Source of the DNA: Escherichia coli | GTDB taxonomy: Bacteria > Pseudomonadota > Gammaproteobacteria > Enterobacterales > Enterobacteriaceae | NCBI RefSeq assembly: GCF_003018255.1 | Contig: NZ_CP027440.1 | Direction: 5' to 3' (one strand) | Length of the DNA: 64,000 nucleotides | In this document: one piece after another, positions 44,438 to 44,963 of the stretch | How the letters are laid out: each line of letters starts with the position of its first letter | How positions within the stretch are numbered: position 1 is the stretch's first letter | The notes under the pieces: model-generated | Database searches by the model: none | Told to the model about the DNA's origin: nothing | Seen by the model: the letters and a program-made list of their open reading frames with translations, nothing else | Position numbers and translations under genes: made by a program

Positions 44438-44514
44438 ACAAAAAACCCCGCCGGAGCGAGGTTTCGTCAGTCGCCTGCGGCTGGTAACCGCAAAGCACAC
44501 TGTATTATGTCAAC
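44438..44514 (-). ncRNA. istR: IstR-1 antitoxin sRNA (the longer IstR-2 would begin further upstream)
   Basis: Minus-strand GUUGACAUAAUACAGUGUGC… to a GGGGUUUUUU 3' end; complementary to the tisAB 5' UTR segment at 44754-44773. Confidence 0.7.
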
Positions 44515-44619
44515 ACTGAAAGTATACGTGTTCCGCGCAGAACGCGCAATTTCGGCACGAATTTTGACGTATTTAGTGCATAGTTGAGTATCGATCACAG
44601 TTTGCGTTTTGTCCAATAT

Positions 44620-44639
44620 TACTGTTTATTTATACAGTA
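44620..44639. promoter_or_regulatory. LexA box of the tisAB / istR-2 control region
   Basis: tACTGTttatttatACAGta fits CTGT-N8-ACAG; TATAAT follows at 44649-44654. Confidence 0.8.
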
Positions 44640-44873
44640 AACTTCTATAATATCACTGTACGCAATGTGTTATGCGGGGGCCGCATCGTTACCCGGCGCA
44701 CTAAGTCCTGGCAGAAACGGGTGGTGCCGTCAGCGCCTTAACCCCGCGTGAGCACACTGTGTTATGTCAACAAGCACAACGTTTCTCCTTGAGATACCGC
44801 GTGCACAACAGCTGGCAACAGGCAGCGGAAAGGTACGTCAGCTGGCAGTGCTCCTGAACCACAGGAGACGCGT

Positions 44874-44963
44874 ATGAGCCTGGTGGATATCGCCATTCTT
44901 ATCCTCAAACTCATTGTTGCAGCACTGCAACTGCTTGATGCTGTTCTGAAATACCTGAAGTAA
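44874..44963 (+). CDS. tisB: Type I toxin TisB (29-aa membrane peptide)
   Basis: MSLVDIAILILKLIVAALQLLDAVLKYLK with GGAG RBS. Confidence 0.92.
   Translation: MSLVDIAILILKLIVAALQLLDAVLKYLK

What the first reader, a model, noticed from the sequence alone, without database searches (positions are those of the whole stretch)
44438..44963. tisB/istR type I toxin-antitoxin locus with its antisense pairing repeat and shared LexA box
The 20-nt segment at 44495-44514 (gcacactgtattatgtcaac) recurs with one mismatch at 44754-44773, inside the tisAB leader about 100 nt upstream of tisB. Because IstR-1 is transcribed from the minus strand across the first copy, it is complementary to the second copy; this is the known standby-site pairing that blocks tisB translation. 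A LexA box (44620-44639) lies between the divergent units. The locus is intact here: the 29-aa TisB ORF, RBS and terminator are all present.
Basis: partly seen in the sequence, partly recalled or inferred. Interest (0 to 1): 0.35.

Follow-up and report, generated by a model that had tools for sequence, protein, structure and literature searches.

The report
Known E. coli tisB/istR toxin-antitoxin locus

Summary
A 22-nt direct repeat (44494-44515 and 44751-44772, one mismatch) is real and not chance (0 of 100 shuffles). The window is E. coli. The locus is 99% identical to K-12 istR-tisAB, lies between ivbL and emrD, and matches Rfam istR at 150 bits. It has the LexA box, the tisAB -10, the SD, a 29-aa TisB (the common N2S allele) and a terminator. 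IstR-1 nt 1-21 pair with leader +94..+114 through 20 Watson-Crick pairs and one G·U. In 13 other Enterobacteriaceae loci the repeat, its spacing and the LexA box are conserved, with one compensatory A-U to G-C pair.

Two refinements apply. The LexA box serves tisAB and istR-2, not the constitutive IstR-1. "Intact" also needs a caveat: 44713 is A where K-12 has U at +56, the central pair (U56-A75) of the pseudoknot stem required for standby translation. This allele occurs in 4 of 4,356 E. coli genomes and in none of the other species, with no compensating change. It is predicted to weaken the stem, but its effect is untested.

The parts
44440..44514 (-). istR-1, the 75-nt antitoxin sRNA. The 5' 21 nt form the antisense segment, followed by two stem-loops and a U-tail.
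   Evidence: Rfam RF01400 match. Identical to K-12 istR. K-12 annotates IstR-1 over the equivalent of 44440-44512. The fold shows a free 5' end and two hairpins.
44440..44579 (-). istR-2, the 140-nt SOS-induced longer isoform that contains IstR-1.
   Evidence: K-12 ncRNA annotation mapped through the alignment. Promoter-like -35 TGGACA at 44615-44610 and -10 GATACT at 44592-44587, the same hexamers as in PMC11264685 Table 1.
44521..44549 (-). IstR-1 constitutive promoter: -35 TTGCGC at 44549-44544 and -10 TATACT at 44526-44521.
   Evidence: Hexamers given in PMC11264685 Table 1, located in the sequence with a 17-nt spacer, 6 nt upstream of the IstR-1 5' G at 44514.
44494..44515 (.). Repeat copy 1. 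Its complement is the IstR-1 5' pairing segment.
44616..44616 (.). Site of a 1-nt deletion relative to K-12 (AAATAT becomes AATAT), between the IstR-2 -35 and the LexA box.
   Evidence: Alignment with K-12. The exact 62-mer with the deletion occurs in at most 76 of 4,299 E. coli genomes.
44620..44639 (.). LexA box TACTGTTTATTTATACAGTA, covering -38..-19 of the tisAB promoter and lying 4 nt upstream of the IstR-2 -35.
   Evidence: A CTG-N10-CAG box is conserved at this position in all 14 related loci. Published as the LexA site of tisAB and istR-2.
44646..44658 (+). tisAB promoter -10 TATAAT (44646-44651) and transcription start +1 (44658).
   Evidence: The -10 is as in PMC11264685 Table 1. +1 was deduced by matching the published mutant names CC50/51, G54, C55, U56, G57, C74 and A75 to the sequence.
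44699..44699 (+). +42, the 5' end of the processed, translatable tisB mRNA.
   Evidence: Numbering. Role taken from PMC6690012.
44707..44734 (+). 5' structure element of the standby site, an H-type pseudoknot. S1 is +50-53 with +61-64. S2 is +54-58 (44711-44715) with +73-77 (44730-44734).
   Evidence: PMC7708055. The segment is nearly invariant in 14 loci from at least 6 genera.
44713..44713 (+). Rare variant A at +56 (U in K-12). It gives an A56·A75 mismatch at the central pair of S2.
44751..44772 (+). [quoted passage not shown] The RNA duplex covers 44751-44771 (+94..+114). The RNase III product +106 starts at 44763.
   Evidence: Mechanism.
44764..44877 (+). tisA, a 37-codon ORF reported as not translated.
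   Evidence: Its ATG is ACG in 8 of the 13 other loci.
44863..44868 (+). tisB Shine-Dalgarno AGGAGA, 5 nt before the ATG and sequestered in structure.
   Evidence: and PMC11264685 Table 1. The opening energy of SD..AUG is about 12 kcal/mol in all isoforms.
44874..44963 (+). tisB, the 29-aa membrane toxin MSLVDIAILILKLIVAALQLLDAVLKYLK (N2S allele).
   Evidence: Annotated as WP_000060506.1 TisB. N2S is the majority allele in E. coli at 85%.
44983..45016 (+). tisAB intrinsic terminator: a 12-bp stem with a 4-nt loop and a T-rich tail.
   Evidence: (I1).

Best explanation
This is the chromosomal tisB/istR-1 type I toxin-antitoxin locus of E. coli, working as described for K-12. LexA bound at 44620-44639 represses the tisAB promoter (+1 = 44658) and istR-2. 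After DNA damage the primary tisAB mRNA is made but is untranslatable, because the tisB SD/AUG is buried and the 5' 41 nt sequester the upstream standby region. Processing to +42 (44699) frees a single-stranded region (+94..+114, 44751-44771). Together with the 5' pseudoknot (+50..+77), this region loads a 30S subunit via protein S1, and the subunit then slides about 100 nt to the tisB RBS. The constitutive sRNA IstR-1 (44514 to 44440, minus strand) carries at its 5' end the complement of a direct DNA repeat of that region. It forms a 21-bp duplex that blocks standby binding and is cut by RNase III, giving the inert +106 mRNA. TisB (29 aa) depolarises the inner membrane and promotes persistence. 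Shown here: every sequence element, the complementarity, and their conservation across genera. Inferred from the K-12 literature: LexA binding, processing, standby loading, RNase III cleavage and toxicity. Specific to this strain is a rare U56A change that breaks the central pair of pseudoknot stem S2. That change probably lowers TisB translation but does not affect IstR-1 pairing.
For: Rfam istR matches at 150 bits. The locus is 99% identical to the annotated K-12 locus, in the same synteny. The 22-nt repeat was matched by 0 of 100 shuffles. The seed duplex scores -36.7 kcal/mol against a next-best of -22.6 in the 64 kb window. In 13 loci from Citrobacter, Salmonella, Siccibacter, Franconibacter, Pseudenterobacter and others, the repeat sits at 247-257 nt spacing with a LexA-like box and a TisB-like ORF. 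Across these, 98.6% of duplex cells are paired, and one pair switches A-U to G-C in 4 distinct sequences. The target costs more to open in the +1 mRNA (10.6 kcal/mol) than in +42 (7.3), and SD..AUG costs about 12 kcal/mol in all isoforms. The mechanism is published: PMC6690012, PMC7708055, PMC4147584 and PMC11264685. For U56A: the alignment; allele counts of 4 of 4,356 versus 4,312 of 4,356; the published U56-A75 pair; the only unpaired cell of 126 in the cross-species pseudoknot count; and S2 stacking falling from -5.4 to -0.3 kcal/mol.
Against: Nothing contradicts the identification. Several limits apply. No expression or binding data exist for this strain. The covariation rests on one pair and probably few evolutionary events (12 of 500 shuffles reach it). 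Thermodynamic folding reproduces the +1/+42 accessibility switch only modestly, by about 3 kcal/mol. The effect of U56A is unmeasured: published single mutants in S2 range from 1.5-fold (C55A) to about 20-fold (G57C) loss of toeprint, and C74G alone stayed toxic.
Confidence: 0.95

Rival explanations
1. The locus is present but is a natural hypomorph. U56A disrupts pseudoknot stem S2 enough that 30S/S1 standby loading largely fails. TisB would then be poorly translated even after SOS induction, and IstR-1 would have little left to repress.
For: U56-A75 is the central pair of the 5-bp S2. Disrupting S2 abolishes toxicity and compensatory changes restore it. +56 is U in 4,312 of 4,356 E. coli genomes and in all 13 other loci. 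No second-site change occurs within 801 nt, and the nearest relative differs inside the tis/istR unit only at this base. Stacking energy drops from -8.1 to between -3.0 and -5.0 kcal/mol.
Against: U56A was never tested alone. Some single S2 mutants are mild: C55A gave a 1.5-fold drop and C74G a 1.8-fold drop while staying toxic. The allele persists in 4 genomes from three countries, so it is not strongly deleterious, although losing a toxin would not be expected to be.
Confidence: 0.45
2. U56A is functionally neutral or re-registers the pseudoknot. The A56 loop (GGCA, +53-56) would pair with UGCC (+68-71) instead of UCAGC (+73-77), keeping an S1-binding H-type pseudoknot.
For: The alternative 4-bp pairing is created specifically by the A allele. 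It scores -6.7 kcal/mol by duplexfold, against -7.8 for the wild-type canonical pairing. The summed stacking of the shifted register (-5.0) beats the broken canonical register (-3.0).
Against: The shifted form costs one S1 pair (G53-C61) and is still about 3 kcal/mol weaker than wild type. UGCC at +68-71 is invariant for reasons that may be unrelated. No pseudoknot-aware energy model or probing data were available.
Confidence: 0.35
3. The 22-nt repeat is a chance match or an inert duplication relic, and IstR does not act through it.
For: None beyond the fact that short repeats do occur. A third 12-nt partial copy at 44663-44674 is of chance quality.
Against: None of 100 shuffles matched it. 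It is conserved in 13 of 13 usable loci across genera while the adjacent leader (+1..+47) diverges freely. A compensatory change is present. Published binding, cleavage and genetic data support it.
Confidence: 0.01
4. IstR-1 acts by blocking translation of the upstream tisA ORF, whose ATG lies inside the duplex, and tisB is translationally coupled to tisA. This was the original 2004 idea.
For: The tisA ATG (44764) lies within the 44751-44771 duplex, and tisA ends at 44877, overlapping the tisB ATG. The tisA ORF is over 99% conserved within E. coli.
Against: The tisA start is ACG in 8 of the 13 other loci, and the frame and length are not conserved. The GTDB E. coli representative E69 itself has a shifted frame. 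The literature reports no evidence that tisA is translated and demonstrates the standby mechanism instead.
Confidence: 0.03

Closest known systems
tisB/istR-1 of E. coli K-12 MG1655 (b4618/b4616)
   Same: Same genes, same synteny and 99% nucleotide identity. IstR-1 and IstR-2, the LexA box, the promoters, the pairing region, the SD and the TisB length are identical.
   Different: There are seven differences in 661 nt. They include TisB N2S, which is the majority E. coli allele. They also include a 1-nt deletion between the IstR-2 -35 and the LexA box, found in at most 1.8% of genomes. The third notable change is U56A in pseudoknot stem S2, found in 0.09% of genomes. The rest are a terminator-loop change and flanking SNPs.
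dinQ/agrB, zor/orz and shoB/ohsC (divergently encoded type I TA loci of E. coli)
   Same: They share the architecture: a divergent sRNA whose 5' part is complementary, through a short direct DNA repeat, to a long toxin 5' UTR far from the RBS. The mRNA is processed to an active form. dinQ is also LexA-controlled. Pseudoknots are predicted in similar positions.
   Different: The toxins and RNAs are not homologous. None of them lies at the ivbL-emrD position, and this window matches istR specifically.
hok/sok (plasmid R1 type I TA)
   Same: An antisense RNA blocks toxin translation indirectly, RNase III cleaves the duplex, and mRNA processing is needed for activity.
   Different: Sok is a true overlapping cis-antisense RNA that acts through the mok leader ORF. 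There is no standby site, no LexA control and no sequence homology.

Membership tests
tisB/istR-1 type I toxin-antitoxin system | IstR sRNA gene homologous to Rfam RF01400 (sequence plus structure) | tested here: met
   150.1 bits against a gathering score of 45, full length 1-130, at 44440-44569(-). Identical to K-12 istR.
tisB/istR-1 type I toxin-antitoxin system | 29-aa hydrophobic TisB ORF with an SD, divergent from istR | tested here: met
   ORF at 44874-44963, MSLVDIAILILKLIVAALQLLDAVLKYLK. Annotated as TisB WP_000060506.1 in an identical genome. AGGAGA lies 5 nt upstream.
tisB/istR-1 type I toxin-antitoxin system | About 21 nt of complementarity between the IstR-1 5' end and the tisAB leader, about 100 nt upstream of the tisB RBS | tested here: met
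   21 contiguous pairs (20 Watson-Crick plus 1 G·U) between IstR-1 nt 1-21 and 44751-44771. 98.6% of cells are paired across 10 distinct sequences, with one compensatory pair.
tisB/istR-1 type I toxin-antitoxin system | LexA box at the tisAB promoter (SOS control) | tested here: met
   A perfect TACTG-N10-CAGTA at 44620-44639 overlaps -38..-19 and is unique in the window. It is conserved in 14 of 14 related loci. LexA binding itself cannot be tested here.
tisB/istR-1 type I toxin-antitoxin system | Chromosomal position between ilvBN-ivbL and emrD | tested here: met
tisB/istR-1 type I toxin-antitoxin system | Structurally sequestered tisB RBS, and a standby region that is more accessible in +42 than in +1 mRNA | tested here: met
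   Opening energy of SD..AUG is about 12 kcal/mol in all isoforms. The target costs 10.6 kcal/mol to open in +1 and 7.3 in +42. This is prediction only and the effect is modest.
tisB/istR-1 type I toxin-antitoxin system | 5' pseudoknot of the standby element (S1 +50-53/+61-64; S2 +54-58/+73-77), required for S1/30S binding | tested here: inconclusive
   S1 is intact. S2 keeps 4 of its 5 pairs, but the central U56-A75 pair is A·A here. The functional consequence is unknown.
tisB/istR-1 type I toxin-antitoxin system | TisB toxicity, IstR-1 repression, RNase III cleavage to +106, and processing to +42 | not testable with these tools
   Taken from K-12 experiments. N2S TisB was shown to be toxic in PMC11264685.

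The most novel reading that the evidence does not exclude
The U56A allele, found in 4 of 4,356 E. coli genomes and in no other species sampled, is a natural loss-of-function or strong hypomorph mutation of the tisB standby pseudoknot. This small Asian sub-lineage (DETEC-S792, 2017.09.02CC, JNE23-011, JNE112863) would then make little TisB on SOS induction and would show reduced TisB-dependent fluoroquinolone persistence. If so, it is a naturally occurring in vivo test of the pseudoknot-standby model.
Probability: 0.4. Interest if true: 0.3.

Novelty: already known. Interest (0 to 1): 0.12.

Why it matters
As a finding it is a correct re-identification of a textbook system, so it adds nothing new about how type I toxin-antitoxin loci work. 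Two by-products have modest value. First, the cross-genus comparison gives natural comparative support for two structures so far supported mainly by K-12 mutagenesis. These are the IstR-1/standby duplex (A-U to G-C) and pseudoknot stem S2 (the series G54-C77, then G·U, then A54-U77). It also shows that the pseudoknot core is far more conserved than the rest of the leader. Second, the strain carries a very rare uncompensated mismatch at the centre of S2. Strains with this allele could serve as natural material to test whether the pseudoknot matters for TisB-dependent persistence outside plasmid overexpression.

Tried and rejected
I replaced it with a DNA pattern scan built from conserved IstR positions.

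(2) RNA.duplexfold of full-length IstR-1 against the whole leader gave a meaningless 69-nt 'interaction', because it ignores intramolecular structure, and shuffles averaged -52 kcal/mol. I used the 22-nt seed and opening energies instead.

(3) Mean per-base unpaired probability of the target barely separates +1 from +42 (0.38 versus 0.46). Constrained-ensemble opening energies gave a clearer but still modest difference.

(4) Nested MFE folds of +42 differ between the U and A alleles. I did not rely on them, because they do not reproduce the experimentally supported pseudoknot.

(5) The third partial repeat at 44663-44674 (12 nt) was judged to be of chance quality, with about 0.7 such matches expected in an 800-nt region by my own estimate.

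(6) Weak sub-threshold Rfam hits (Termite-leu over the tisB terminator, naRNA4 over a REP-like hairpin, STnc310 and P6 near ivbL) were dismissed as chance or generic hairpins.

(7) The pseudoknot covariation is not statistically significant on its own (133 of 500 shuffles).

Full report
**Observation**

The 20-mer gcacactgtattatgtcaac is at 44495-44514 as stated. None of 100 dinucleotide-preserving shuffles of the window produced a second match even at 3 mismatches. The repeat extends to 22 nt, 44494-44515 and 44751-44772.

The other stated elements are also present:
- The LexA box TACTGTTTATTTATACAGTA is at 44620-44639 and is the only exact TACTG-N10-CAGTA in the 64 kb window.
- The TisB ORF is at 44874-44963 and encodes 29 aa.
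- The SD AGGAGA is at 44863-44868.
- A 12-bp terminator hairpin is at 44983-45010, followed by a T-rich tail.

**Identity**

The Rfam istR model (RF01400) matches 44440-44569 on the minus strand over its full length, at 150 bits against a gathering score of 45. An 801-nt query around the locus hits 5,421 of 5,426 complete E. coli genomes. It is 100% identical to strain DETEC-S792, where tisB is annotated between ivbL and ysdE/emrD. K-12 MG1655 annotates IstR-1, IstR-2 and tisB at the homologous positions, and the two sequences are 99% identical over 661 nt.

**Anatomy in window coordinates**

Published hexamers (PMC11264685 Table 1) and the promoter scan place the promoters as follows:
- IstR-2: -35 TGGACA at 44615-44610, -10 GATACT at 44592-44587, 5' end at 44579.
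- IstR-1: -35 TTGCGC at 44549-44544, -10 TATACT at 44526-44521, 5' G at 44514.
- tisAB: -10 TATAAT at 44646-44651.

I fixed tisAB +1 at 44658 by matching the mutant names in PMC7708055 (CC50/51, G54, C55, U56, G57, C74, A75) to the sequence, and all of them fit. This gives +42 = 44699, the IstR-1 duplex at +94..+114 (44751-44771), +106 = 44763 inside that duplex, the SD at +206 and the AUG at +217.

The LexA box covers -38..-19 of the tisAB promoter and lies 4 nt upstream of the IstR-2 -35. It is therefore shared by tisAB and istR-2. IstR-1 is constitutive.

**Pairing**

IstR-1 nt 1-21 form 20 Watson-Crick pairs and one G·U (IstR U11 with G+104) with the leader. The 22-nt seed gives -36.7 kcal/mol at the target, against -22.6 for the next-best non-self site in the whole window on both strands. 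IstR-1 alone folds with a free 5' end and two hairpins.

Opening the target costs 10.6 kcal/mol in the +1 mRNA and 7.3 in +42. In the +1 MFE, nt 3-22 pair with +85..+105. Opening SD..AUG costs about 12 kcal/mol in every isoform. These predictions agree in direction with the published model, in which +1 is inactive, +42 is active through standby, and +106 is inactive after RNase III cleavage (PMC6690012; PMC4147584). The predicted difference is modest.

**Comparative evidence**

A pattern built from conserved IstR positions was scanned against one genome per species. The pattern left the variable pairing positions free and did not constrain the leader. It returned 14 loci: seven Citrobacter, two Salmonella, Siccibacter, Franconibacter, Pseudenterobacter, two unnamed Enterobacteriaceae and E. 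coli E69.
- All 13 loci with enough sequence have the second copy 247-257 nt away.
- All 14 have a CTG-N10-CAG box between the divergent units.
- A TisB-like ORF was detected in 12. In the other two (L008 and L013) the stored sequence ends before the tisB position.

On the duplex, 98.6% of cells are paired. IstR nt 7 with target +108 is A-U in five distinct sequences and G-C in four, and 12 of 500 shuffles reach this covariation score. A few species carry a single A·C mismatch. The leader 5' of about +47 diverges freely, while +48..+84 is almost invariant.

The tisA ATG, which lies inside the duplex, is ACG in 8 of the 13 other loci, and the frame is not conserved. This argues against a coding role for tisA, as the literature also holds.

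**What differs from K-12**
- 44878: TisB N2S. This is the consensus allele, found in 85% of E. coli, and it has been shown to be toxic (PMC11264685).
- 44615/16: a 1-nt deletion between the IstR-2 -35 and the LexA box, present in at most 76 of 4,299 genomes.
- 44435, 44982, 44996 (terminator loop) and 45024: SNPs outside the functional elements.
- 44713: A instead of T, which is +56.

**The +56 variant**

PMC7708055 shows that loop nt 54-58 pair with 73-77 to form stem S2 of an H-type pseudoknot that is required for S1/30S binding, toeprinting and toxicity. U56-A75 is the central pair: the U56C/G57C mutant is rescued by C74G/A75G. Here the pair is A·A.
- The window's 61-mer is found exactly in only 4 of 4,356 genomes carrying the segment: DETEC-S792 (China), 2017.09.02CC (Viet Nam), and JNE23-011 and JNE112863 (Japan).
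- The K-12 61-mer is exact in 4,312 of 4,356 genomes.
- The nearest relative without the change (2014C-3338) differs inside the tis/istR unit only at this base, so there is no second-site compensation.
- Across the 14 loci the pseudoknot is 99.2% paired, and the window's A56·A75 is the only unpaired cell of 126.
- Pair 54-77 shows the series G-C (10 loci), G·U (3) and A-U (1, UBA3516), which is natural support for S2 although not significant alone.

Stacking energy for S1 plus S2 falls from -8.1 to -3.0 kcal/mol in the canonical register, or to -5.0 in a shifted register (GGCA +53-56 with UGCC +68-71) that the A allele creates. Published single S2 mutants range from 1.5-fold to about 20-fold loss of toeprint. 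The likely effect is therefore a reduction of unknown size. IstR-1 pairing and the nested +1 fold are unaffected.

**Verdict**

The system is already known in detail, so interest is low. The one item a specialist might note is the rare, uncompensated mismatch in the standby pseudoknot, which qualifies the statement that the locus is 'intact' and can be tested directly.

Noticed in passing
window 44713: A instead of U at tisB mRNA +56, the central pair (U56-A75) of the experimentally defined standby pseudoknot stem S2. The allele is in 4 of 4,356 E. coli genomes, is absent from 13 other Enterobacteriaceae loci, and has no compensating change.
   Followed up: yes
window 44615/44616: A 1-nt deletion relative to K-12 (AAATAT becomes AATAT) shortens the gap between the IstR-2 -35 hexamer and the LexA box from 5 to 4 nt. 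At most 76 of 4,299 E. coli genomes share it. The A56 allele arose within this background.
   Followed up: partly
window 44877-44879: TisB codon 2 is AGC (Ser) where K-12 has AAC (Asn). According to PMC11264685, Ser is the majority E. coli allele (85%) and slightly more toxic at low induction. Ser is also at this position in 7 of the 12 TisB-like ORFs from other loci (5 Citrobacter, S. diarizonae and Franconibacter; the E. coli representative E69 has it too), so K-12 looks like the outlier.
   Followed up: partly
L010 (Enterobacteriaceae UBA3516), leader aligned in A3 columns 13 and 36: A natural G54A together with C77U keeps pseudoknot pair 54-77 as A-U. Siccibacter, RIT714 and Franconibacter carry the G·U intermediate. 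G54A alone reduced toeprinting 8-fold in K-12 experiments.
   Followed up: yes
L003, L005, L006, L010, L012, L014, L015, L016 (position homologous to window 44764-44766): The tisA start codon ATG is ACG in 8 of the 13 other loci, and the downstream frame and length vary. The E. coli representative E69 has a shifted frame of 27 codons. This is consistent with tisA not being a conserved coding gene.
   Followed up: partly
L003 and L012 (IstR nt 7); L005, L010 and L015 (IstR nt 5): [quoted passage not shown] E. coli instead has a G·U at IstR U11, where most other species have C-G.
   Followed up: partly
E. coli genome collection: Only 4,356 of 5,426 complete E. coli genomes (80%) contain the tisB leader segment, although 5,421 match some part of the 801-nt region. 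About a fifth of strains therefore lack the locus or have it rearranged.
   Followed up: no
window 44663-44674: A third, 12-nt partial copy (CAATGTGTTATG) of the repeat core lies at +6..+17 of the primary tisAB mRNA. It is probably chance. In the predicted +1 fold this 5' segment pairs with +85..+105 and covers the 5' half of the IstR-1 target.
   Followed up: partly
window 45087-45161 (-) and 45032-45064: The annotated 24-aa small protein gene ysdE lies between the tisB terminator and emrD. A REP-like hairpin gives a weak naRNA4 hit, below threshold.
   Followed up: no
window 54819-54891 (-) and 27048-27138 (+): A ROSE_2 RNA thermometer (96.6 bits) and tRNA-Sec (83.8 bits) are the only other Rfam matches above gathering score in the window.
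   Followed up: no
window 44212-44310 (-): The ivbL leader peptide ORF (MTTSMLNAKLLPTAPSAAVVVVRVVVVVGNAP) of the ilvBN attenuator lies directly downstream of the IstR terminator, followed by ilvB at 42418-44106 (-).
   Followed up: no
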